Assembly: GCA_041648755.1 (NCBI GenBank)
Contig: JBAZOJ010000071.1
Location: 1 to 13,897 of the forward strand
DNA length: 13,897 nucleotides
Direction: 5' to 3'
Source: Candidatus Brocadiia bacterium
GTDB lineage: Bacteria > Planctomycetota > B143-G9
Shown here: piece by piece, positions 1 to 13,138 of the stretch
Numbering within the stretch: the stretch's first letter is position 1
Layout: each line of letters starts with the position of its first letter
Notes under the pieces: generated by a model
Database searches by the model: none
What the model was told of the DNA's origin: nothing
Seen by the model: the letters and a program-made list of their open reading frames with translations, nothing else
Made by a program: the position numbers and the translations under genes

Positions 1-971
1 GCAACCTCACTACGCGCAAGATTTTCGGCATCTTCAGCGAGGATATGTCCAGCAACGAATGGAAGACCATCGCAACCGAGATCGGCAACGAGATCGAGAA
101 GGGCTGCGACGGCATAGTTATAGGCCACGGCACGGACACGATGCACTACACGGCCGCCATCCTTACATTCATGTGCCAGAACCTCCCCTGCCCGGTCGTG
201 ATAGTGGGCTCGCAACGGTCCAGCGACCGGCCGTCATCCGACGCCGCGCTGAACCTGACGAATGCCGTAAAGACAGCAGCCGAGAGCGACTTCGCCGAGG
301 TAATGGTCTGCATGTTCGGCCCCACCAGCGACGAGTACTGCCTGCTCCACCGCGGCACACGCGTGCGCAAGATGCATTCATCCTATCGCAGCACTTTCAG
401 AACCATCGGCGACACCCCGCTTGCAATGGTTTCGCCCAAGTGGATCAAGCCCATTCACCGCGATTACCGCGTGCGTGACAAGTCGCGCAAGCCCATCATA
501 AAGCCGGTCTTCGAGGATCGCGTTTCGATGCTCTATTACTACCCCAATATGAGCCCCGACCTTGTTGACTCGCTGCGCGACAACGGCTACAAGGGTCTGG
601 TCATCATCGGCACGGGCCTCGGCCACGTGAACCGTAAGATGAACCCCGCGCTTAAGCGCGCTGTCGATTCGGGCATGCATGTGTATATGTGCGTGCAGAC
701 GCTATGGGGCTATGTGCAGATGTTCGTGTACGACACGGGCCGCGACCTGCTAGAACTGGGCGTGGTTCCGCTTGGAAACATGATACCTGAGACGTCCTTT
801 GCGAAGCTTGGCTGGGCTCTGGGCCAGTCCAGTGACCGCGAGGAAGTCAAGAAGATCATGCTGACGCCGGTCGGCCACGACATCACTGAAGGTGAGCCCT
901 CCAACGGCTACCTGATATTCCAGGGCGGTACGCCTGACATCGAAGAGTTTCTAAAGCACATCAAGTTCTAA
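1..971 (+). CDS. gatD: L-asparaginase-fold protein, C-terminal ~322 aa. Motifs most resemble archaeal-type Glu-tRNA(Gln) amidotransferase subunit D (GatD). The gene is 5'-truncated by the window edge; the reading frame is open from base 3.
   Basis: The frame carrying the ORF at 45..971 stays open back to base 3 (N L T T R K I F G I F S E D M S...), so the gene starts upstream of the window. Asparaginase core motif IVIGHGTDTMHYTAA is present. VVIVGSQRSSDRPSSDAALNL, HRGTRVRKMHSS and YKGLVIIGTGLGH match what I recall as GatD signatures rather than bacterial AnsA (VIVTGSQIPL...). Stop TAA at 969-971 is followed by a hairpin terminator. Confidence 0.6.
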   Translation, partial: NLTTRKIFGIFSEDMSSNEWKTIATEIGNEIEKGCDGIVIGHGTDTMHYTAAILTFMCQNLPCPVVIVGSQRSSDRPSSDAALNLTNAVKTAAESDFAEVMVCMFGPTSDEYCLLHRGTRVRKMHSSYRSTFRTIGDTPLAMVSPKWIKPIHRDYRVRDKSRKPIIKPVFEDRVSMLYYYPNMSPDLVDSLRDNGYKGLVIIGTGLGHVNRKMNPALKRAVDSGMHVYMCVQTLWGYVQMFVYDTGRDLLELGVVPLGNMIPETSFAKLGWALGQSSDREEVKKIMLTPVGHDITEGEPSNGYLIFQGGTPDIEEFLKHIKF

Positions 972-988
972 CAACTGTGAGAGAGGAG

Positions 989-1023
989 AACGCCTCCGGC
1001 TAACCCCGGAGGCGTTTTTCGTT
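989..1023. terminator. Bidirectional intrinsic terminator shared by the convergent gatD-like and RIO kinase genes.
   Basis: AACGCCTCCGG (989-999), loop CTAACC, CCGGAGGCGTT (1007-1017), then TTTTCGTTTC. Lies between stop codons at 971 (+) and 1025 (-). Preceded by GA-rich tract GAGAGAGGAGAA (979-990). Confidence 0.6.
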
Positions 1024-1024
1024 T

Positions 1025-1762
1025 CTACAGCTCGGAATACCTGAAACGGTTCCAGAGGTCAGTTGCGATTTTCCATGGCCTGCACTCTACGCCGAAGCGC
1101 TCGAAGTACGACGCCAGGTTCTCGATGTCGCGCCCGAGGAACATACGGGCGTTGGAATTAAATCGGGGGTCAACTGCCTGCGGGAAGTCGATGATCCGAA
1201 TATGCCCGTTCCAGTACAGTACGTTGTACGGCGACAGGTCGGAATGCACCACATTGCAGGACAAGAACCTCTCGATATTTCCCATCACGCGCCTGAACAA
1301 GAGCTGAGCCTCGTCCCTGGAAGGGCGGTGCTCGCGCAGGGGCGGAGCGGGCGAGTCGTCGTGACCCGCAAGCTCCATCAGGATGGCGCAGCCGCGCAAC
1401 GCGATAGGACGGGGCACATCCGCGCCCGCTGAATGCAGAGCGCGAAGGGTCTCGTACTCGTTGGCCACCCACATACCATGCTGGACGCGTTTGCCGAAAT
1501 CGGTCTTCTTGGCGAACGCAACCTGCTCTCGGCGCTTCCCCATTACGCGCCCTTCGGAATATGCAGCATCGTTACGAAAGCCGCGCCCCGTAAGTGGGCG
1601 ATACACCTTGGCGGCCACGTAACTCGAACGACTCTTCCTGGTGCCACGGCAACAGAAGACCGTCGCCTCCTTACCGCTCTTCACCTGAAACAGGACTTCG
1701 CTAACGAACCCTTCATAGAGGAAGGGCTCGATGAATTCGATCAAATCCGGATTGTCGGACAT
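1025..1762 (-). CDS. RIO-type serine/threonine protein kinase (RIO1 family, atypical kinase).
   Basis: 245 aa. ATP-binding Lys context VAAKVYRP. Catalytic and metal-binding loop VVHSDLSPYNVLYWNGHIRIIDFPQAVD matches RIO1 (HxDLSEYN...IIDxxQ). Size is typical of stand-alone RIO kinases. Confidence 0.7.
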   Translation of the reverse strand: MSDNPDLIEFIEPFLYEGFVSEVLFQVKSGKEATVFCCRGTRKSRSSYVAAKVYRPLTGRGFRNDAAYSEGRVMGKRREQVAFAKKTDFGKRVQHGMWVANEYETLRALHSAGADVPRPIALRGCAILMELAGHDDSPAPPLREHRPSRDEAQLLFRRVMGNIERFLSCNVVHSDLSPYNVLYWNGHIRIIDFPQAVDPRFNSNARMFLGRDIENLASYFERFGVECRPWKIATDLWNRFRYSEL

Positions 1763-1866
1763 TGCTTTCTCCTGGTCCTCGAATGTGGAACACTACACTA
1801 AGAACTTGAACCGCGGAAGATGCGCTGCAAGGCATAAGCCCTCCCTTCGGGTTAGTAGAGAACGAA

Positions 1867-1926
1867 CAGGCGGCCAGTCTGGCCGCCTGAAAACAAAGCG
1901 GCCGCCCGTTTCCGGACGGCCGCCAA
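1867..1926 (-). terminator. Two tandem GC-rich hairpins on the minus strand. The upstream one (1926-1900) is followed by a U-run and is the likelier intrinsic terminator.
   Basis: Minus strand reads GCGGCCGTCCGGAAACGGGCGGCCGC + TTTGTTTT, then CAGGCGGCCAG-A-CTGGCCGCCTG + TTCGTTCTCT. They sit downstream of the 15-codon mini-ORF and about 100 nt upstream of the RIO kinase start. Confidence 0.45.
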
Positions 1927-1954
1927 TAAACGAGAAGACGTTTGCGCGACGATC

Positions 1955-2002
1955 CTATGCCGGGCGTGAACCTCCCGTGAAGAAAGCTTCTGTTGGTCTC
2001 AT
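1955..2002 (-). CDS. Possible 15-aa micro-ORF (MRPTEAFFTGGSRPA) with a strong Shine-Dalgarno.
   Basis: Minus strand reads ATAAGGAGGAcgttcctATGAGACCAACAGAAGCTTTCTTCACGGGAGGTTCACGCCCGGCATAG. SD AAGGAGGA sits 7 nt before ATG (2002..2000); stop TAG at 1957..1955. It is followed within 30 nt by the tandem hairpins at 1926-1867. Too short for homology support. Confidence 0.25.
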   Translation of the reverse strand: MRPTEAFFTGGSRPA

Positions 2003-2088
2003 AGGAACGTCCTCCTTATAGGAATAGCTCCGCGATTGAACCAGCGTACTGAAGATAAGTCGCGAAACAGTCAAGAGCCTGAGGGGTG

Positions 2089-2119
2089 GAAAACGGCGGC
2101 TGAAGCCGCCGTTTCCGGA
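2089..2119. terminator. Hairpin with flanking T-runs on both strands; the probable intrinsic terminator of the Lys-rich micro-gene (minus strand).
   Basis: Plus strand: GGAAAACGGCGGC TGAA GCCGCCGTTTCC. On the minus strand, stem CGGCGGC/GCCGCCG is followed directly by TTTTCC. Located 26 nt downstream of the micro-ORF stop (2145). Confidence 0.45.
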
Positions 2120-2144
2120 GAAAAGCTCTTGAGAAGAAGTTGTG

Positions 2145-2216
2145 CTACTTCTTCACCGGCTTCTTCGCGGGCTTCTTCTCTTCCTTCTTGGGCTCGCACT
2201 TCTTGCATCCAGCCAT
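2145..2216 (-). CDS. 23-aa lysine-rich micro-protein or leader peptide, MAGCKKCEPKKEEKKPAKKPVKK (13 of 23 residues Lys, all AAG; CxxC pair).
   Basis: Minus strand reads CCTAAGGAGGAAAACATGGCTGGATGCAAGAAGTGCGAGCCCAAGAAGGAAGAGAAGAAGCCCGCGAAGAAGCCGGTGAAGAAGTAG. SD AAGGAGGA lies 4 nt upstream of ATG (2216..2214); stop TAG at 2147..2145. Preceded by a strong promoter (2313-2285) and followed by a terminator (2119-2089). It is not in the supplied ORF track because it falls below the length cut-off. Confidence 0.45.
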   Translation of the reverse strand: MAGCKKCEPKKEEKKPAKKPVKK

Positions 2217-2284
2217 GTTTTCCTCCTTAGGATGAAAAGGGTTATGGCTCAACCGAAAGCACGCGTTGGCGCGCTACTGCCAAT

Positions 2285-2313
2285 AGTGTAGCAGAAATGT
2301 TCCCGCTTGTCAA
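2285..2313 (-). promoter_or_regulatory. Sigma70-like promoter on the minus strand driving the micro-gene: -35 TTGACA, 17-bp spacer, -10 TACACT.
   Basis: Minus strand reads cTTGACAagcgggaacatttctgcTACACTattggc. Perfect consensus -35 at 2313..2308, -10 at 2290..2285, spacer exactly 17 nt. Predicted TSS is near 2278, giving a ~60-nt 5' UTR to the SD. Confidence 0.5.
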
Positions 2314-2338
2314 CAGGGATTTTCGAAGAACTTTTGCG

Positions 2339-3163
2339 CTACTTCGCCGAGTTCTCGTATGCCGTGATGAACAGACGGGCGGTAAATACGGCCGCGGCGT
2401 CAATTCGTTCCTGTGCGAACTCGCGGACTTTATCAGACTTGATCACCCCGGAATTTGCTGGAATTTCCGGCTCCAGCGCGAAAACTGTCTCCACGAGCCC
2501 ATGGCTCTTATCAAGCTCTGTGGCTATTTCCATGAGGATGCCATTCCAGGAGTAAGGTTTCAGGCCGTTTACACAAGACCTTGTGGATTGCAGCTTTATG
2601 AGCAGCCAATCGACCCTCGAATGAAGGTCCTTTCCCTTGTGCTCTTCCTTGCCGTCGTAGAACACTGTGGTGTGCAATGGGTTGCAGAGATCCTGTGCGT
2701 AGTGGGCCAGCACGCCAGCGTACACAAGGCACTTTGCCTGGAGTTCCTTGCTGTCGGTTTTGTACCTGTAATTGTTAAAGGCTGTCGCCAGCCTGCCCGT
2801 CCATTCTGCAACCGCGTACGGAAGCATTCCGACATGCTCTGCGACTAAGTCCTTGTCATGGCACATCTTATAGAATGCCCATCGGTCGGTAGGAAGTGGA
2901 GATCTGCTCAGCTTCTCCATGTTGATGAAATGTTCGGGCTCCTCTGTGGAGCCGAGGATCTTGCTGCCATAGCTTCTGAAGGAGTCGGGGTCGTCCGAGG
3001 CCAACACTGCGTAAGCGGCGCCTTTGGCGAAGAACTCGGGCAGTCCCGCGCCCTGTGTGGCAACGGCAGCTTCAGTTATTGTTCGGTGCACAGCATGTGA
3101 CCAGCCGACAAATAGCACCGAAACGGAAACCAGTATCAGCAGTGGCGTTCGCGTGGCACGCAT
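2339..3163 (-). CDS. Secreted S1/P1-family zinc-dependent nuclease (same phospholipase C/P1 nuclease superfamily fold).
   Basis: Mature N-terminus WSHAVHRT corresponds to Trp1/His6 of the P1 nuclease zinc site. LAHYAQDLCNPLHTT matches P1 HFIGDxxQPLH. EHFIN matches LHFID. DLHSRVDWLL matches NLHSDWD. An N-terminal signal peptide is predicted to cleave just before the Trp. The six-frame ORF starts at 3190 (MRYRNTEGAMRATRT...), but the second ATG at 3163 is preceded by GGAGGG (5-nt spacing) and is the preferred start. Confidence 0.6.
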   Translation of the reverse strand: MRATRTPLLILVSVSVLFVGWSHAVHRTITEAAVATQGAGLPEFFAKGAAYAVLASDDPDSFRSYGSKILGSTEEPEHFINMEKLSRSPLPTDRWAFYKMCHDKDLVAEHVGMLPYAVAEWTGRLATAFNNYRYKTDSKELQAKCLVYAGVLAHYAQDLCNPLHTTVFYDGKEEHKGKDLHSRVDWLLIKLQSTRSCVNGLKPYSWNGILMEIATELDKSHGLVETVFALEPEIPANSGVIKSDKVREFAQERIDAAAVFTARLFITAYENSAK

Positions 3164-3394
3164 TGCACCCTCCGTGTTACGATATCTCATACAATTCTAC
3201 TCACGGTGAATATGCCGGTCAACCTCGTGTGCTCTCTGGCGAAATTTTCCGTGGACCAAAGCGAGGACGTAACCTGAGATCGCACGCACGTAATTCGTGC
3301 CATTCGCAATACGCGAGGTACAATGTTAGTGACTGGCACTGACCACTTGGGAATCAACCGCCGCTTAGTGAAATCTCCCGCGAAGGAGCGTCCA

Positions 3395-7538: not shown

Positions 7539-9158
7539 ATGCCGCAGGAGCAGAAGGGGTCTCCCGAAAAGGCCCCTATCGTGAGGTCCATTTTCTCCTA
7601 CTCGCTGGCGACCTTGCTGTCGCGTATCAGCGGCTTCGTCCGCGAAACCGCCTGGGCTGCGCTTATCGGCCCCACCCAGTTCTCGGATATCTTCCTGTTT
7701 GTCTATACCATACCCAACCTGATGCGCAGGCTTCTTGGCGAAGGCGCGATAGCGTCCGCGTTTGTCCCCCTGTTCAACTCGGTCGAGAAGCAGTCGGGAA
7801 TCGAGGAGGCTCGCAAGCTATCCTCAACCATCTACACGCTTCAGACCATGATAACGACCGCCTTCACGGTCCTGACCATGCTGGTCTGTATCATCATCCG
7901 ATTCACCGCTCCACCCGACTCGACAATTGTCATCTACGCCGAGTACCTTGCTGTGCTTGCCCCATACGCGGTGTTCATCTGCGCCGACGCATTCCTCGCA
8001 TCTCTACTGAATGCCCGACGGATCTACTTCCTGCCGAATATGGTGCAGGTAATCATCAACGTGTTCTGGCTGGGATTGACCTTCGTAGCCGTCTGGGCCT
8101 TCCAGCCAAGATACGGGCTGACGGTACTGGGCGGAGGAGTGGTTGCGGTCTGCGCCTACACGGTCTGGATGCTTGCCGCGCGGGCAAAAAAAGAAGGCGT
8201 TGCTGTCGAGTTTACCCTTCGGCATCTGAAGACCACGCCCGCGCTGCAGGGGTTCTTTGCGCGGTACTGGCTTGTCATCCTGGGCTCGGCTTCGTACACG
8301 ATCAATGTGTTGATTGACCGGCTTTTCGTGCAGTTCCTTGTCCCGGGGGAAGGCGCGATGACAATCTTCTACCAGGGCGAACGGTTGATGCAACTCCCGC
8401 TGGGGGTGCTCGCGGTGTCGGTTGGCACGGTTGCGCTGACGGAACTGAGCAAGTCAGTATTCGAGGAAGACAAGTTCCGCGACAACTTCACGCGGCTGAT
8501 GCGCATAGCCGGATTCCTGGCGATACCCACCACCGTTGTGATGGTCATGCTGGCCGTTCCGCTTGTTGATTTTTCACTGAATTACGGCAAATTCGCAGCG
8601 GCGTCCGCCGATCTGCACGCACTTTCCCGCGCCGCCAACGTGCTCATTTGCTATATGGTCGGCCTTCCAGCGTTCTTCCTGATGCAGGTTCTCACAAAGG
8701 TGTATTTCTCCATCAACGAACTGAAGATCACCGTGCGAGTCTCTACCTGGATGATCGTGTTCAATGTGGTAGCGAACATCGCCGTGCTGAGATACACAAC
8801 GATGGGCGAATCAGGGCTCGCGCTGACCAGTTCGATCGCATCGTGGCTGAGCGTGCTGTTGCTTTCATGGGCTTTGCACCACAGGATGCCCAAACTGGGA
8901 TCGTGGGCGGGAGTGAAATCATTCCTGTCATTCATTCCTGCGGCGGCTATTGCGGGCGTGGGGCTATGGGCATGCCTCCATTTGTTCGACGGGATGACCG
9001 GACGCTCTGTGCTTGACAGGTTCCTGCGGCTCGCGGTGCCCTCATTGGTGTTCTTTGGCATCTACTTTGCTGTTAACGCGGTGTTCAGGGTGCCCGAGGC
9101 GCGGTCGCTGGTCAGAAGATTGTTTCGCAGAAGCGCTTCCCAGCCGCCGTTGAAGTGA
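7539..9158 (+). CDS. murJ: Lipid II flippase MurJ (MviN).
   Basis: N-terminus SIFSYSLATLLSRISGFVRETAWAALIGPTQFSDIFLFVYTIPNLMRRLLGEGAIASAFVPLF matches the MurJ signature (SRxxGFxRE...AFxxxxxIPNLFRRxFAEGAFSxAFVP). About 14 TM segments; 540 aa from ATG at 7539, which has GAGAGGAA upstream. The six-frame track starts at an upstream TTG at 7485. Confidence 0.85.
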   Translation: MPQEQKGSPEKAPIVRSIFSYSLATLLSRISGFVRETAWAALIGPTQFSDIFLFVYTIPNLMRRLLGEGAIASAFVPLFNSVEKQSGIEEARKLSSTIYTLQTMITTAFTVLTMLVCIIIRFTAPPDSTIVIYAEYLAVLAPYAVFICADAFLASLLNARRIYFLPNMVQVIINVFWLGLTFVAVWAFQPRYGLTVLGGGVVAVCAYTVWMLAARAKKEGVAVEFTLRHLKTTPALQGFFARYWLVILGSASYTINVLIDRLFVQFLVPGEGAMTIFYQGERLMQLPLGVLAVSVGTVALTELSKSVFEEDKFRDNFTRLMRIAGFLAIPTTVVMVMLAVPLVDFSLNYGKFAAASADLHALSRAANVLICYMVGLPAFFLMQVLTKVYFSINELKITVRVSTWMIVFNVVANIAVLRYTTMGESGLALTSSIASWLSVLLLSWALHHRMPKLGSWAGVKSFLSFIPAAAIAGVGLWACLHLFDGMTGRSVLDRFLRLAVPSLVFFGIYFAVNAVFRVPEARSLVRRLFRRSASQPPLK

Positions 9159-9240
9159 AATCCGGGCAAATGCCGCTATACTGTTGCGTCTTGTAGCCAT
9201 TCGGACCCAACGGAGAACACTGAGTCTCCCAGGAGGAAAT

Positions 9241-11070
9241 ATGTTGAAGAAATTCGGCCTGCTGGCCATGGCCCTTCTCGCCTTCGCGGCGCTCCCAACG
9301 GTTGCGCCCGTCGCCGACGAGATGCCCTCCGGTTCCATCACGAAGTACCTTCCGGCAAACACGATTTTCGTCGCCGAGTTCAATGACTTCAAGTCATCGT
9401 ATACGCGCGCCCAGGAACTCGGAGTCGTCAAGATGATGAACGATCCCGAGGTCAAGGCCTTCTTCGAGTCGCTGCAGGGAATGAATCCCAATAATGCGCA
9501 GGACATGGAGAAATTCAGCGAACTGATTAAGTTCTTCCAGGAGATCGAGCCATTGGCTGCAGGGCTGTTCAAGGGATATGGTTCCCTGGCAGTTGTAACC
9601 GCCAATCAGAAGGAAAAGAGCGCATATGCCGTTCTGGCAGTTCAGATCGAGCAGGGCAAGGGCGCTGAGGGCGCGGAACTGATCAAGAAGATTCTCGAAA
9701 AGGTCACGCAGCTCAATCCCGACAAGCAGATGGATATCAAGACCGAAACCATTGGCAAGTACGAAGCCACCCGCATCGCTGAAAACGGCGAAAAGCCTGA
9801 CAATGAGGCTGGTTACTACACCTTCACCGACAACTACTTTATCCTTGGTGTCGGCAAGACGTCCCTCGTCACGGCGCTTGAGGCGATGGATGCCCCCCCG
9901 GCCGAGCCCATGTCCGCCAAGCCCGAATTGCTCAAGGCCTATTCGATGCACAAGTCCAAGGAAGGCTTCTTCTTCCTCAACCTCAAGGCCCTGTGCGACC
10001 TTATGACCGAGCAGGCAGAGCCAGAGCGCGTTGAGGACCTGGCCAAGATGAAGGAAGTCGTGCGGTTCGTTCCAGCCATTTCCGGCGGAATGACCTTTGA
10101 CGGCCCCAACTTCGACGAGCAGTTGATCCTTCACTTCGGCGATGTTCCGGAGTTCGCCATGGTCAGGAGCCTCCAGGCCAAGGCTCTGTCCTTCGCAACA
10201 GCTTCGCTGATGCCCAAGGAGCCCATGTTCTACGGTGCGATGTCGATGTCAGCGGCCGAGATCCTGGAAGATCTGCCCAAGATCATTCCGAATGCGGCAC
10301 AAATGGAAGCCGGTTTCGCGATGGTTGAGCAGGCGACCGGCATTTCTGTAAGGGACAAACTGCTTCCCGCCATCGGCGACGAAGTGGGATTCTATGTCAC
10401 TATGGCCGGAATGATGCCTGAGTACCTTGCGGTCGTGACTCTGAACGACCCGGTCATTGTCAGCACAATGCTTGACGGTCTCGTTGCCATCCCCGACGGC
10501 CCTGTAACCGAGGTTGGAACATTCAAGGATCACAAGCTCTTTGCGGCTGGCGCAGGCCAGGGAAATCCCAACGCACCAGTGTTCTGCGTACACCAGAACT
10601 TCCTGCTGGTCGGCGGAATGCTCGCACTCAAGAACACCATCAACCGCAACCCGGAAGCCTCGCTTGCCACGAACGACACGTTCAAGGAAGCCCTTGCCGG
10701 ATTCGGCGACACCAAGCATAACGCGTTTGTGTTCTTCGACACCAAGAAGGCATTCGATGCCGCATACAACTTCGTTCCCATGGTTGCCGGACCCATGGCA
10801 GCCAATCTGCCAGCCAAGGAAGTCTTCACGCAGTACATCACCCCGCAGGCTTTCTCGTTCAAGGTCAACGGAGACCACGCCATCCTGCGCGCCCGTGGTT
10901 TCCTCCCCGGCTCAGTAATTCTGATGGGAGCTGGCGCAGCAATGTTCTTTTCCGCTTCCCGCATGGAACGCCGCCCTCCGCCAGACGGCGACTTCCCCCC
11001 ACCTCCTCCTGGCGACGGTGAAATGCCTGATGATCAGAATCCGCCACCGGATGAGCAGCCCAACAATTAG
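9241..11070 (+). CDS. Exported protein of unknown function, 609 aa (paralog A). Signal peptide, large soluble region, C-terminal TM helix, proline-rich acidic tail.
   Basis: ATG at 9241 is preceded by AGGAGGAAAT. Signal peptide MLKKFGLLAMALLAFAALPTVAPVA | DEMP. C-terminal hydrophobic segment GSVILMGAGAAMFFSAS, then RMERRPPPDGDFPPPPPGDGEMPDDQNPPPDEQPNN. Clear paralogy to the downstream gene (NDPEVKAFFESLQGM vs NDPEVQALFEGLKSM; GGMTFDG vs GGITFDG; LLPAIGDEVGFYVTMAGMMP vs ILPALGDEYCSYFTMQGIMP). The 82-nt gap after murJ has no terminator, so the gene is probably co-transcribed with it. Confidence 0.75.
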   Translation: MLKKFGLLAMALLAFAALPTVAPVADEMPSGSITKYLPANTIFVAEFNDFKSSYTRAQELGVVKMMNDPEVKAFFESLQGMNPNNAQDMEKFSELIKFFQEIEPLAAGLFKGYGSLAVVTANQKEKSAYAVLAVQIEQGKGAEGAELIKKILEKVTQLNPDKQMDIKTETIGKYEATRIAENGEKPDNEAGYYTFTDNYFILGVGKTSLVTALEAMDAPPAEPMSAKPELLKAYSMHKSKEGFFFLNLKALCDLMTEQAEPERVEDLAKMKEVVRFVPAISGGMTFDGPNFDEQLILHFGDVPEFAMVRSLQAKALSFATASLMPKEPMFYGAMSMSAAEILEDLPKIIPNAAQMEAGFAMVEQATGISVRDKLLPAIGDEVGFYVTMAGMMPEYLAVVTLNDPVIVSTMLDGLVAIPDGPVTEVGTFKDHKLFAAGAGQGNPNAPVFCVHQNFLLVGGMLALKNTINRNPEASLATNDTFKEALAGFGDTKHNAFVFFDTKKAFDAAYNFVPMVAGPMAANLPAKEVFTQYITPQAFSFKVNGDHAILRARGFLPGSVILMGAGAAMFFSASRMERRPPPDGDFPPPPPGDGEMPDDQNPPPDEQPNN

Positions 11071-11118: not shown

Positions 11119-11341
11119 TGCGAAACTTGCACACTTGGGTGATTTATGCGCTTTACGTTCCCCGGCAACTCGGAGTGTGCGATCGACAGCTTGTTCGGCA
11201 CAGGTCCAAAACTCGGGATAATGGCCTGCAAAGGCACCAGACCGGGTAATGCGGACGCGATGACCACACGCGAGCCCGGCCGTTGCTTTGGCACAAGGAT
11301 TGATTCTATCTACCGGCCCCATGTGGGCGGGAGGAGTTCCG

Positions 11342-13138
11342 ATGCTACAACGCTCGCTTTCCATGCTGCTTCTGGCGACCTTGTTCACGATAACAATAAT
11401 GGCAACGCCCTACGCCGACGAAATGCCGGGCGAGTCCATGTCCAAGATGGTCTCCGCGGAGGCCGTCTTCTTCCTTGAGCTCAACGACCTTCACAAGTCG
11501 CTTGAGCGCGCGAAGGACCTTTCCATCGTAAAGCTGTTCAACGATCCGGAAGTCCAGGCGCTGTTCGAGGGCTTGAAGAGCATGAAGGAACAGGAAGTGG
11601 ATGACTTCCTGACCAAGTTCCAGGACTATACTACGCGGATTGCCGAGGCATTCAGCGGACGCGCGATGATCTGCATCCCCAGGATCGACATGGAGCAGAA
11701 GCTCATCGAGGTCGTGGCTGCGGCATCGGTTGCACCCGGCAAGGAGGCTGAGGCCAAGGCGTTGTTCGAGTTGCTCATCTCCGCAATGATGAACGACCCC
11801 AAGAACCAGGACAAGATTACCACTGAGGATTTCGGCGGTGTGCAAGTCACCATTATGCGCGCAAAGCCGGAACAGGAAGAAAAGATGAACGTCTGCCTGG
11901 CAATGCACAAGAACCAGGCGATTGTAACGCTGGGCTCGCAGACCATGAAGGACTACCTGGGCTATTTCGAAGTTCCCCCGGCCCGTCCGCTGTTCGATCT
12001 CCCCGCGTTTGCCAAGTTGTACAAGGCTGTCAGTTGCAAGGAAGTCTTCTGGTTCGTGGACGCCAATGCCGCAATCAAGATGTTTGCTCGGATTTTCGAT
12101 TTTGTCCCGGCCGGGAACGCGGAGATCCTCGATGTAGTCAAGGGCTTGATGGACAAGTTCTCCACACTTATCAGCTATGCTGCAGGCGGAATCACTTTCG
12201 ACGGTGAGATGATGAATGACGAGATTGCCGTCCAGTACACCCCCGCCGCGATGCAACTCAAGAGCATCACATCGATGAGGGGCTCCGTGTGCGAACTGAA
12301 GACGGCGAAGTTCGTTCCGGAGAACGCGCTTTACTACACGGCTACCCGCATCAACTGGGTGGATACGTACAGCGATTTCGAGGGCATGCTGCCCGAGTCG
12401 TGGCGCGAGCAGATCAAGAACATCGAGAACTCACTGATGCTGTCGCTTAAGGATGAGATCCTGCCTGCCCTTGGGGATGAGTATTGCAGTTACTTCACCA
12501 TGCAGGGCATCATGCCGAGTTCACTTTACGCAATCGAATTGAAGAACCCGGAAGTAATCGCGAAGGTTCTTGCAGGCCTGAATACGGTTGTCCCGTACCC
12601 GATTCAGGAAGTGGATTTCCGGGAGCATAAGATCTACAAGCTCAGCATGGGCGGTGGAGTTCCCGGGCCATTCGCAGCCACGACCATCTGGGGCTTTGCC
12701 ATCCACGACGGGTATCTGCTGGCGGGATACTTCAACACGGTCCAGGCTGTCATTTCGCACACCGGCAAGGACATTACGGCTAATCCGGAGTACCAGAAGG
12801 CACTGCTGGCCACTCCGCCGAAGACCGGGTTCATTTTCCTGGATGTGAAGAACCTGTTCGGGTGGATATATGACACCGTCCTGCCGTTCCTTCAGCCGAT
12901 GCTGGCCCAGAACCCCAACTTCGATCCCGCACTTCTGCCCAGCAGGGATGCAATACTCGGTTACTTGCAGCCAATGTCGGCAAATACTGAGCTGGTCGAC
13001 GATATGGCAATGGTCAGAATCAAATCGCCCGTCGCGATGTCACCCGTACTCGGCGTTATTTTCATCGCCATCAGCGCCGTGATGTTCGCAGCACCTGACA
13101 ACAGGGGCAACAACGGTGGTGACGAGGGCGTTTTTTAG
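11342..13138 (+). CDS. Exported protein of unknown function, 598 aa (paralog B of the upstream gene). Signal peptide and C-terminal membrane anchor.
   Basis: ATG at 11342 is preceded by GGGAGGAG. Signal peptide MLQRSLSMLLLATLFTITIMATPYA | DEMP. C-terminal hydrophobic helix VLGVIFIAISAVMFAAP, then a short Gly/Asn tail. About 25-30% identity to paralog A along the full length. Has its own upstream region (220 nt after a terminator). Confidence 0.75.
   Translation: MLQRSLSMLLLATLFTITIMATPYADEMPGESMSKMVSAEAVFFLELNDLHKSLERAKDLSIVKLFNDPEVQALFEGLKSMKEQEVDDFLTKFQDYTTRIAEAFSGRAMICIPRIDMEQKLIEVVAAASVAPGKEAEAKALFELLISAMMNDPKNQDKITTEDFGGVQVTIMRAKPEQEEKMNVCLAMHKNQAIVTLGSQTMKDYLGYFEVPPARPLFDLPAFAKLYKAVSCKEVFWFVDANAAIKMFARIFDFVPAGNAEILDVVKGLMDKFSTLISYAAGGITFDGEMMNDEIAVQYTPAAMQLKSITSMRGSVCELKTAKFVPENALYYTATRINWVDTYSDFEGMLPESWREQIKNIENSLMLSLKDEILPALGDEYCSYFTMQGIMPSSLYAIELKNPEVIAKVLAGLNTVVPYPIQEVDFREHKIYKLSMGGGVPGPFAATTIWGFAIHDGYLLAGYFNTVQAVISHTGKDITANPEYQKALLATPPKTGFIFLDVKNLFGWIYDTVLPFLQPMLAQNPNFDPALLPSRDAILGYLQPMSANTELVDDMAMVRIKSPVAMSPVLGVIFIAISAVMFAAPDNRGNNGGDEGVF

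What the first reader, a model, noticed from the sequence alone, without database searches (positions are those of the whole stretch)
1..1762. Two archaeal/eukaryotic-signature genes (GatD-like asparaginase-fold protein and RIO kinase) convergently paired in a bacterial context
The 5'-truncated gene carries motifs I associate with archaeal GatD (SQRSSDRPSSDA, GTGLGH, HRGT(K/R)VRKMH) rather than bacterial type I asparaginase. The convergent neighbour is a RIO1-type atypical kinase, a family that is universal in archaea and eukaryotes but sporadic in bacteria. The rest of the window is bacterial (bacterial-type PheS motif 3, MurJ, UppP, sigma70-like promoter, intrinsic terminators). This suggests an inter-domain transfer island, or a lineage that retains these functions. 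The region is also followed by the lower-GC spacer holding the micro-genes. A stand-alone GatD without GatE would more likely be a free asparaginase or glutaminase than a tRNA amidotransferase.
Basis: partly seen in the sequence, partly recalled or inferred. Interest (0 to 1): 0.55.

Follow-up and report, generated by a model that had tools for sequence, protein, structure and literature searches.

The report
Bacterial GatD beside an unrelated RIO kinase
A planctomycete bacterium carries a genuine copy of GatD, an enzyme subunit that reviews call archaea-only, but it belongs to a large, mostly unremarked bacterial GatD/GatE clade, and its RIO-kinase neighbour is an unrelated bacterial gene rather than part of a transfer island.

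Summary
Window 1-971(+) is the 3' two-thirds of a true gatD. It scores 382 bits against the NCBIfam GatD equivalog (cut-off 310), and its best PDB hits are archaeal GatD. The longer source contig adds the GatD-specific N-terminal domain. Window 1025-1762(-) is an intact RIO1-domain kinase. A strong shared terminator hairpin separates the two genes.

The "inter-domain island" reading is not supported:
- GC3 and codon usage match the other genes in the window.
- RIO lies next to gatD in none of about 60 other loci examined, including the two closest relatives.
- The nearest homologues of both proteins are bacterial.

This GatD belongs to a monophyletic bacterial clade (99% bootstrap) found in FCB-group phyla and Planctomycetota. 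Members are 60-80% identical to it, against 37-48% for archaeal GatD. They share a clade-specific C-terminal extension and usually sit in a gatE-gatD pair, sometimes with glnA or tRNA-Gln upstream. Reviews up to 2022 still call GatDE exclusively archaeal.

In the window's own lineage gatD is unlinked from gatE. It is under strong purifying selection and keeps the family's near-invariant residues. It is therefore most likely the glutaminase subunit of a Glu-tRNAGln amidotransferase whose GatE is encoded elsewhere. That last point could not be tested here.

The parts
1..971 (+). 3' part of gatD, open at the window's 5' end. The reading frame starts at base 3, it covers residues 157-478 of a 478-aa protein, and the stop codon is at 969-971. 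It encodes the glutaminase/asparaginase-fold subunit D of the Glu-tRNA(Gln) amidotransferase family.
   Evidence: Translation. Pfam Asparaginase N and C domains. NCBIfam GatD equivalogs passed. PDB best hits are 1zq1 and 2d6f GatD. The full gene with GatD_N is at L001:10792-12228(-). The catalytic Thr/Thr-Asp/Lys residues are invariant.
989..1019 (.). GC-rich hairpin (stems 989-999 and 1006-1016, loop 1000-1005) followed by a T run on the + strand and preceded by a purine-rich stretch (A-rich only next to the stem). It probably acts as a shared, bidirectional intrinsic terminator for the two convergent genes.
   Evidence: Sequence read directly. RNA fold -27.6 kcal/mol against a shuffle mean of -12.2, z = -5.75, with 0 of 200 shuffles as stable. 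The simple terminator scan did not list it, so the function is inferred.
1025..1762 (-). Complete 245-aa RIO1-domain atypical kinase/ATPase of the compact bacterial type. It is an independent gene with no detected link to gatD.
   Evidence: PF01163 at 5.5e-37. NCBIfam PA4780-family RIO1-like model 180 bits, below its cut-off of 350. Alignment to A. fulgidus Rio1 with SGKEA, AAKVYR, HSDLSPYN and IDFPQ motifs. The closest homologues are bacterial. It is absent near gatD elsewhere.

Best explanation
The 5'-truncated gene is gatD. It encodes the Thr-nucleophile glutaminase subunit of a GatDE-type Glu-tRNA(Gln) amidotransferase, in a bacterial version of that enzyme.

In the known mechanism, GatE phosphorylates the Glu on Glu-tRNAGln. 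GatD releases ammonia from Gln or Asn, and the ammonia is tunnelled to GatE to make Gln-tRNAGln.

This copy belongs to a monophyletic bacterial GatD clade in FCB-group phyla and Planctomycetota. The clade was apparently acquired long ago from an archaeal, possibly Asgard-like, source. It is normally encoded as a gatE-gatD pair.

In the window's planctomycete lineage gatD has been separated from gatE. It most likely still works with a GatE encoded elsewhere in the genome.

The RIO kinase is an ordinary bacterial RIO1-family gene that merely shares a terminator with gatD. The pair is not a functional unit and not a transfer island.

Shown here: gene identities, domain architecture, catalytic residues, clade structure, lack of linkage and lack of a composition signal.
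Inferred: enzymatic activity, tRNAGln as the substrate, and the presence of gatE elsewhere in this genome.
For: Identity of GatD:
- The GatD equivalogs are passed by the fragment (382 and 377 bits) and by the full protein (488 and 480 bits).
- The GatD_N domain is present.
- T121/T124, T200-D201 and K279 are invariant across bacteria and archaea. These match the Thr nucleophile plus Thr-Lys-Asp triad described in PMC2330236.

The bacterial clade:
- All of the top 120 hits in 90%-identity clusters are 460-480 aa with the full architecture. Where named, they come from bacterial MAGs.
- 52 of 55 genome loci are bacterial.
- Bootstrap support is 99% for the bacterial clade against archaea and 100% for the window's subclade.
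- The C-terminal extension EPxNGYLxFQGGxPEVEEF occurs in only 2 of 123 full-length family representatives, and both are members or near-members of this clade.

The GatE partner in the clade:
- A 640-660-aa GatE lies next to gatD in about 45 of 55 loci, and in 4 further loci.
- These GatE proteins pass TIGR00134 (375-472 bits, cut-off 320).
- The residues aligning with the Mg2+-binding His15, Glu157 and Glu184 of M. thermautotrophicus GatE are invariant, as are the other cradle-domain motifs (PMC2330236).

Link to glutamine and tRNAGln:
- glnA (TIGR00653, 508 bits) lies directly upstream of gatE-gatD in 14 loci.
- A tRNA-Gln(UUG) gene lies immediately upstream of gatE-gatD, on the same strand, in L023.

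The solitary copies are not decaying:
- dN/dS is 0.08-0.12.
- Only 4 fixed changes occur at 195 near-invariant columns, against 0-8 in clades that keep the gatE-gatD pair.
- gatE and gatD can be separated by other genes, as in L004 and L005, where a solute-binding-protein gene lies between them.

RIO and the island idea.
Against: - No gatE lies on the 22.8-kb source contig, nor within 10 kb of gatD in the two closest relatives L003 and L058. No whole genome of this lineage could be searched, so a GatE partner is unproven.
- Three planctomycete GatE genes sampled all had gatD adjacent. No solitary gatE was found to match the solitary gatD.
- No bacterial GatDE has been assayed.
- The one bacterial tRNAGln seen has U1-A72, whereas archaeal GatDE recognises A1-U72 (PMC2330236). 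The bacterial enzyme would need altered recognition.
- The insertion and tail domains of GatE, which bind tRNA, are poorly conserved between bacteria and archaea.
- Whether these bacteria also have GatCAB or GlnRS, which would make GatDE redundant, is unknown.
Confidence: 0.6

Rival explanations
1. Orphan GatD. The window's lineage has lost gatE. The solitary GatD then works without it, either as a free cytoplasmic asparaginase/glutaminase or with a different partner such as GatB.
For: gatE is absent within 10 kb in all three members of the window subclade that have context (L001, L003, L058), and also in L019 and L021. The fold is that of type I asparaginases (TIGR00519, 360 bits). Two of the four subclade-specific changes (D66P, H69Y) fall in the N-terminal domain.
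Against: The solitary copies keep the GatD_N domain and the clade-specific C-terminal extension. About 98% of the family's near-invariant positions are retained, with dN/dS near 0.1 and no rate acceleration. Archaeal GatDE is glutaminase-inactive without Glu-tRNAGln, with the catalytic Thr held out of the active site (PMC2330236). Gene unlinking alone is weak evidence, since gatD and gatE are also separated in L056, L004 and L005.
Confidence: 0.2
2. The bacterial GatDE-like clade is real but has been recruited to another job, such as amidation of a different aminoacyl-tRNA or of a non-tRNA substrate. The gene would then be a GatD homologue but not a Glu-tRNAGln amidotransferase subunit.
For: The bacterial GatE insertion and tail domains, which measure the tRNA in archaea, are strongly diverged. 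Bacteroidales GatE falls below one of the two equivalog cut-offs (435 bits against 456). GatD has a clade-specific C-terminal extension. Bacterial tRNAGln has U1-A72, not A1-U72. From general knowledge, many bacteria already have GatCAB or GlnRS.
Against: The catalytic motifs of both subunits are fully conserved. A tRNA-Gln gene sits directly upstream of gatE-gatD in one locus. glnA lies next to gatE-gatD in at least 14 loci (directly upstream on the same strand) and on the opposite strand beside it in L060. The very high conservation across phyla (60-80%) is typical of a core translation function.
Confidence: 0.15
3. An inter-domain transfer island: gatD and rio arrived together, recently, from an archaeon.
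For: Both families are best known from archaea and eukaryotes. The two genes are adjacent, and a lower-GC spacer follows them.
Against: Codon usage and GC3 are native. The nearest homologues of both genes are bacterial. The pair is absent from all other loci, including the closest relatives. No mobility genes lie beside them among the genes called on the source contig.
Confidence: 0.02
4. An artefact: an archaeal fragment mis-assembled or mis-binned into a bacterial contig.
For: The source is a metagenome-assembled contig.
Against: The same junction is found at 100% identity in three independent assemblies. gatD lies between bacterial genes on one contig. The protein belongs to the bacterial clade, not an archaeal one.
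Confidence: 0.01

Closest known systems
Archaeal GatD, subunit D of the GatDE Glu-tRNA(Gln) amidotransferase (P. abyssi 1ZQ1, M. thermautotrophicus 2D6F)
   Same: It has the same three-domain architecture (GatD_N plus asparaginase N and C domains). The Thr nucleophile and Thr-Asp-Lys triad are the same. It passes both curated GatD equivalog models. In most bacterial relatives it is paired with a GatE that has the conserved Mg2+-binding residues.
   Different: The host is a bacterium. Identity to archaeal GatD is only 37-48%, against 60-80% within the bacterial clade. There is a ~25-aa C-terminal extension that archaeal GatD lacks. Here the gene is unlinked from gatE. The presumed tRNAGln substrate would carry U1-A72 instead of A1-U72.
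Type I L-asparaginase (AnsA; e.g. P. horikoshii 1WLS, E. coli AnsA 2P2D)
   Same: The catalytic fold and catalytic residues are the same. The TIGR00519 subfamily model is passed.
   Different: It scores far lower than GatD does (PDB 1e-30 to 6e-38 against 1e-88). The asparaginase equivalog PRK09461 is failed (137-138 bits, cut-off 376). AnsA has no GatD_N domain.
GatA of bacterial GatCAB (a functional analogue, not a homologue)
   Same: It has the same expected role, as the ammonia-releasing glutaminase feeding a GatB/GatE-type tRNA-dependent kinase (PMC2330236).
   Different: GatA has an unrelated amidase-signature fold, with Ser-cisSer-Lys chemistry rather than Thr chemistry, and needs GatC. 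Whether GatCAB coexists in this genome was not testable.
RIO kinases: archaeal Rio1 (A. fulgidus 1ZP9) and bacterial RioB / PA4780-family RIO1-like kinases
   Same: It has a RIO domain with the ATP-binding Lys, catalytic HxDLSxYN and metal-binding IDxxQ motifs. It has the compact ~245-aa size typical of bacterial forms.
   Different: It falls below the equivalog cut-offs of both the PA4780 family (180 bits, cut-off 350) and haloarchaeal Rio1 (105 bits, cut-off 480). It is only 50-56% identical to its nearest relatives. The function of bacterial RIO proteins is unknown (PMC5815136).

Membership tests
GatD (Glu-tRNA(Gln) amidotransferase subunit D) | Architecture of GatD-specific N-terminal domain plus asparaginase N and C domains | tested here: met
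   The window itself holds only the asparaginase domains. The full gene on source contig L001 has PF18195 GatD_N, PF00710 and PF17763. The window is 100% identical to L001.
GatD (Glu-tRNA(Gln) amidotransferase subunit D) | Score above the curated equivalog cut-offs, and higher than for asparaginase models | tested here: met
   NF003217 gives 382 bits for the fragment and 488 for the full protein (cut-off 310). TIGR02153 gives 377 and 480 (cut-off 324). The asparaginase equivalog gives 137-138 bits (cut-off 376). PDB GatD scores 1e-88 against 6e-38 for asparaginase.
GatD (Glu-tRNA(Gln) amidotransferase subunit D) | Thr nucleophile plus Thr-Lys-Asp catalytic triad | tested here: met
   T121/T124 (TGGTIAS), T200-D201 (HGTDT) and K279 (VRKMH) are invariant in alignment A1. 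The feature is as defined in PMC2330236.
GatD (Glu-tRNA(Gln) amidotransferase subunit D) | A GatE partner encoded in the same genome | not testable with these tools
   There is no gatE on the 22.8-kb contig or within 10 kb in relatives L003 and L058. In the wider bacterial clade gatE is adjacent in about 45 of 55 loci.
GatD (Glu-tRNA(Gln) amidotransferase subunit D) | Glu-tRNAGln-dependent glutaminase and transamidase activity | not testable with these tools
   This needs biochemistry. The only indirect support is a tRNA-Gln gene and glnA next to gatE-gatD in related loci.
GatD (Glu-tRNA(Gln) amidotransferase subunit D) | Archaeal host ('archaeal signature protein'). This is a statement about distribution, not a molecular feature. 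| tested here: not met
   The contig is bacterial, with MurJ, UppP, bacterial PheS and an ECF sigma factor, and is named Candidatus Brocadiia. Reviews state that GatDE is exclusive to archaea (PMC2330236, PMC8007984, PMC8762117, PMC9499178).
Bacterial type I asparaginase (AnsA) | Passes the AnsA equivalog and has no extra N-terminal domain | tested here: not met
   PRK09461 gives 137-138 bits against a cut-off of 376, and the GatD_N domain is present.
RIO kinase family | RIO domain with ATP-binding Lys, catalytic Asp/Asn loop and metal-binding Asp | tested here: met
   PF01163 gives 127.6 bits (cut-off 22). The SGKEA, AAKVYR, HSDLSPYN and IDFPQ motifs align to A. fulgidus Rio1.
PA4780-family RIO1-like kinase / archaeal Rio1 equivalogs | Score above the equivalog cut-off | tested here: not met
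   NF041645 gives 180 bits (cut-off 350). NF041310 gives 105 bits (cut-off 480). It is a generic bacterial RIO1-family member only.
Horizontally transferred genomic island | Deviant composition or codon usage, and a gene pair conserved as a unit | tested here: not met
   GC3 values of 0.79 and 0.74 lie within the window's range of 0.65-0.79, and codon-usage distance is average. The pair is found in no other locus.

The most novel reading that the evidence does not exclude
The solitary GatD of this planctomycete lineage, and of the L019/L021 lineage, has no GatE at all. It would then act in a new way, for example by supplying ammonia to GatB in place of GatA/GatC, or as a tRNA-independent amidohydrolase that kept the GatD-specific domains. 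A less extreme but still unconventional reading, which I consider likely (about 0.6), is that FCB and PVC bacteria run a genuine GatDE pathway retuned to bacterial U1-A72 tRNAGln. That would contradict the 'archaeal signature protein' status of GatDE.
Probability: 0.12. Interest if true: 0.75.

Novelty: new variant of a known kind. Interest (0 to 1): 0.45.

Why it matters
Specialist reviews up to 2022 describe GatDE as exclusively archaeal and co-evolved with the A1-U72 tRNAGln of archaea. That description is used in arguments about what LUCA encoded and about why archaea never acquired GlnRS.

A large, tightly conserved bacterial GatD/GatE clade therefore matters. It usually occurs as a gatE-gatD pair, sometimes with glnA or tRNA-Gln upstream, and it sits beside a bacterial U1-A72 tRNAGln. 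This shows the family crossed the domain boundary and was kept. It gives a direct experimental handle on how tRNA recognition by GatE can be retuned.

Pipelines (PGAP, IMG) already label these proteins, so the data are visible. However, I found no paper in the held library that discusses them.

For the window itself the practical message is modest. It holds one truncated member of that clade next to an unrelated RIO kinase, not an island.

Tried and rejected
1. Looking for gatE in the window's lineage:
- tblastn of three GatE queries against all fetched loci found none in L001, L003, L019 or L021.
- Contexts of the closest relatives P0001 and L003 showed a solitary gatD again.
- Three planctomycete GatE hits were looked up in the hope of finding a solitary gatE or one from the same assembly. 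All had gatD adjacent and came from other assemblies.
- The metagenome scan added only a 2.5-kb relative (L063) and the other half of the same gene (L102).

2. Looking for a conserved alternative partner next to solitary gatD. The neighbours differ in every lineage: flavin reductase and RIO; VWA and HEAT proteins; tRNA-Gly, pseudouridine synthase and HisRS.

3. Testing whether all solitary gatD genes form one clade. Bootstrap support is only 37%, so one or two separation events remain possible.

4. Apparent second 'GatD-like' ORFs downstream of gatD in some Krumholzibacteriota loci match no family and were clustering artefacts.

5. Rfam and tRNA scans of the window and source contig found nothing.

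7. Two literature searches were poorly targeted and uninformative. Sheppard & Soll 2008 (J Mol Biol) is not held.
Full report
**What is in the window**

The frame open from base 3 to the stop at 969-971 translates without interruption. Pfam finds the two asparaginase domains.

NCBIfam places the 322-aa fragment above the curated cut-offs of both GatD equivalog models, at 382 bits (cut-off 310) and 377 bits (cut-off 324). It scores far below the cut-off of the E. coli-type asparaginase equivalog. The best solved structures are the GatD subunits of P. abyssi and M. thermautotrophicus, at 1e-88 and 8e-79. Free L-asparaginases start at 6e-38.

The convergent ORF at 1025-1762(-) is a complete 245-aa RIO1-domain protein. 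It aligns to A. fulgidus Rio1 with the ATP-binding lysine, the HxDLSxYN catalytic loop and the IDxxQ metal site.

The 53-bp spacer between the genes folds into a -27.6 kcal/mol hairpin (z = -5.75) followed by a U tract. This is most simply a shared terminator.

**Extending the contig**

The RIO protein led to the source contig, ENA k141_2270469, 22.8 kb (L001), and to a Logan contig. Both are 100% identical to the window across the junction. The arrangement is therefore not an assembly artefact.

On L001 the complete gatD encodes 478 aa with the GatD-specific N-terminal domain. It scores 488 and 480 bits on the GatD equivalogs.

Beyond gatD lie a flavin reductase, a nitroreductase, an ECF sigma factor and VWA proteins. 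There is no gatE.

NCBI names the window's proteins 'Candidatus Brocadiia bacterium', a class of Planctomycetota. UppP, MurJ and bacterial-type PheS confirm a bacterial host.

**No island**

- GC3 of gatD (0.79) and rio (0.74) falls inside the 0.65-0.79 range of the other nine genes. Their codon-usage distances are average.
- A RIO homologue occurs next to gatD in none of the other loci.
- The two closest relatives of this gatD are L003 (79%) and L058 (80%). They share synteny with each other, with VWA/HEAT proteins on both sides of gatD, but not with the window. Neither has RIO.
- The nearest relatives of the RIO protein, at 50-56% identity, are compact bacterial RIO1-family proteins from Chloroflexota and Binataceae. 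This fits the RioB group, 'usually found in bacteria' (PMC5815136).

The pairing is therefore coincidental.

**A bacterial GatDE clade**

The homologue search returned thousands of proteins of 460-480 aa with the full GatD architecture, 60-80% identical to the query. Where named, they come from bacterial MAGs: KSB1, Bacteroidetes, Ignavibacteriae, Cloacimonadota, Zixibacteria and Clostridiales bins.

A scan of species-representative genomes found 55 loci, of which 52 are bacterial. They include:
- Planctomycetota
- Krumholzibacteriota
- Latescibacterota
- Fermentibacteria and Aegiribacteria
- Cloacimonadota
- Zixibacteria
- Calditrichaeota
- many rumen Bacteroidales
- a complete 5.4-Mb chromosome

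The three archaeal loci are only 37-44% identical.

Against one representative per 50%-identity cluster, the closest proteins outside the clade are 46-50% identical. They include a Sigynarchaeota (Asgard) GatD and a Thermococcus GatD.

In neighbour-joining trees the bacterial sequences form one clade with 99% bootstrap support. The window groups with L003, P0001 and P0003-P0005 at 100%.

All bacterial members share a ~25-aa C-terminal extension, EPxNGYLxFQGGxPEVEEF, which archaeal GatD lacks. Only rudimentary versions appear in the Asgard-like sequences.

**The partner and the pathway**

Clustering of neighbouring ORFs shows a 640-660-aa gene immediately next to gatD in about 45 of 55 loci. 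The usual order is gatE-gatD. Zixibacteria and archaea have gatD-gatE.

These proteins pass the GatE equivalog TIGR00134. They keep every catalytic cradle motif, including the residues that align with the Mg2+-binding His15, Glu157 and Glu184 of M. thermautotrophicus GatE (PMC2330236). Their insertion and tail domains, which contact tRNA in archaea, are much less conserved.

GatE is also common in Phycisphaerae and other Planctomycetota. In four further loci examined, including three planctomycete GatE hits, it is again adjacent to gatD.

Two context clues tie the pair to glutamine and tRNAGln:
- A type I glutamine synthetase gene lies directly upstream in 14 loci, and divergently in L060.
- In L023 a tRNA-Gln(UUG) gene lies immediately upstream of gatE-gatD, on the same strand.

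That tRNA has U1-A72 and G73, the bacterial form. Archaeal GatDE recognises A1-U72 (PMC2330236, PMC9499178). A bacterial GatDE acting on it must therefore have shifted its recognition. This is an inference, not shown here.

**The solitary gatD of the window's lineage**

gatE is absent within 10 kb of gatD in L001, L003 and L058, and also in L019 and L021. The neighbours differ between lineages, so no alternative conserved partner is apparent.

The solitary genes are nevertheless well maintained:
- dN/dS is 0.08-0.12, although dS is near saturation.
- The N-terminal domain and the C-terminal extension are retained.
- The window subclade has only four fixed changes at 195 columns that are near-invariant in the rest of the clade. 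That is no more than in clades with the gatE-gatD pair, which have 0-8.

gatE and gatD are also separated by other genes in L004 and L005, where a solute-binding-protein gene lies between them, and in the archaeal locus L056.

In addition, archaeal GatDE has no glutaminase activity without Glu-tRNAGln (PMC2330236). Taken together, I think the solitary GatD most likely still serves a GatE encoded elsewhere (confidence about 0.6). An orphan GatD with a new role remains possible (about 0.2). The genomes could not be searched in full because the collection scans were exhausted.

**Comparison with the literature**

Four reviews from the field, dated 2008 to 2022, describe GatDE as an 'archaeal signature protein', 'only in archaea' or 'exclusively in archaea'. 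Searches of the held library for GatDE together with bacterial carriers found no paper describing a bacterial GatDE.

Annotation pipelines already label these MAG proteins GatD and GatE. The clade is thus visible in databases but, as far as I could find, not discussed. Subscription-journal papers are not covered, so this absence is not proof.

**Verdict**

The 'two-gene inter-domain island' interpretation fails.

What remains of interest is that the window samples a bacterial variant of GatD, from a clade that contradicts the stated distribution of GatDE, in a lineage where gatD has been uncoupled from gatE.

The window's copy is truncated and its locus is otherwise ordinary. I score interest as moderate (0.45).

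Noticed in passing
P0361 (protein from the representative search, Logan contig of 12.8 kb): A 943-aa protein fuses a GatE-type catalytic domain (GatB_N, residues 24-304) to a complete GatD (GatD_N plus asparaginase N and C domains, residues ~486-937, 55% identical to P0001). It is a natural GatE-GatD fusion, apparently lacking the GatE tail.
   Followed up: partly
L023:7897-7971 (+), directly upstream of gatE at 7981: A tRNA-Gln(UUG) gene of bacterial type (U1-A72, G73, encoded CCA) lies immediately upstream of gatE-gatD, on the same strand, in a Bacteriovoracaceae-labelled MAG.
   Followed up: partly
L004:3581-4957 and 13 other loci (for example L009, L018, L041, L043, L046, L048, L049); L060:3420-4838: A type I glutamine synthetase gene (TIGR00653, 508 bits) sits directly upstream of gatE-gatD, in a glnA-gatE-gatD arrangement, in Krumholzibacteriota, Aegiribacteria and relatives. 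In a planctomycete locus it lies divergently.
   Followed up: partly
window 1763-2338: This is the lower-GC spacer between rio and the next gene. It holds a sigma70-like promoter on the - strand (2313-2285, 10 of 12 matches, extended -10). Two strong terminator-like hairpins lie about 360-420 nt downstream on the same strand (1924-1897 and 1889-1867). This could define a short independent transcript. There is no Rfam match, and no gene is called there on the ENA contig.
   Followed up: no
window 9184-11070 (+) and 11288-13138 (+): Two tandem paralogous genes of ~620 aa, 26% identical over ~580 residues (E 3e-61). Both encode a predicted N-terminal signal or anchor segment. Only the first gives a weak DUF3352 match. 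The function is unknown.
   Followed up: partly
L019:9702-9774 (-) and L021:9720-9795 (-): In the second lineage with a solitary gatD, a tRNA-Gly(CCC) gene lies divergently just upstream of gatD in both genomes. Both GatD proteins also carry a ~35-aa N-terminal extension.
   Followed up: no
L004:6975-8495 (-), L005:8245-9810 (-), L007:865-2391 (-), L008:1192-2691 (-): A family-5 solute-binding protein gene (PF00496) is inserted on the opposite strand between gatE and gatD, or just upstream of gatD, in four loci. This shows the gatE-gatD pair can be split.
   Followed up: partly
window 2339-3190 (-): A 283-aa protein with a signal-peptide-like N-terminus gives only a sub-threshold match to zinc-dependent phospholipase C (18.5 bits, cut-off 26.8). 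It has no NCBIfam match.
   Followed up: no
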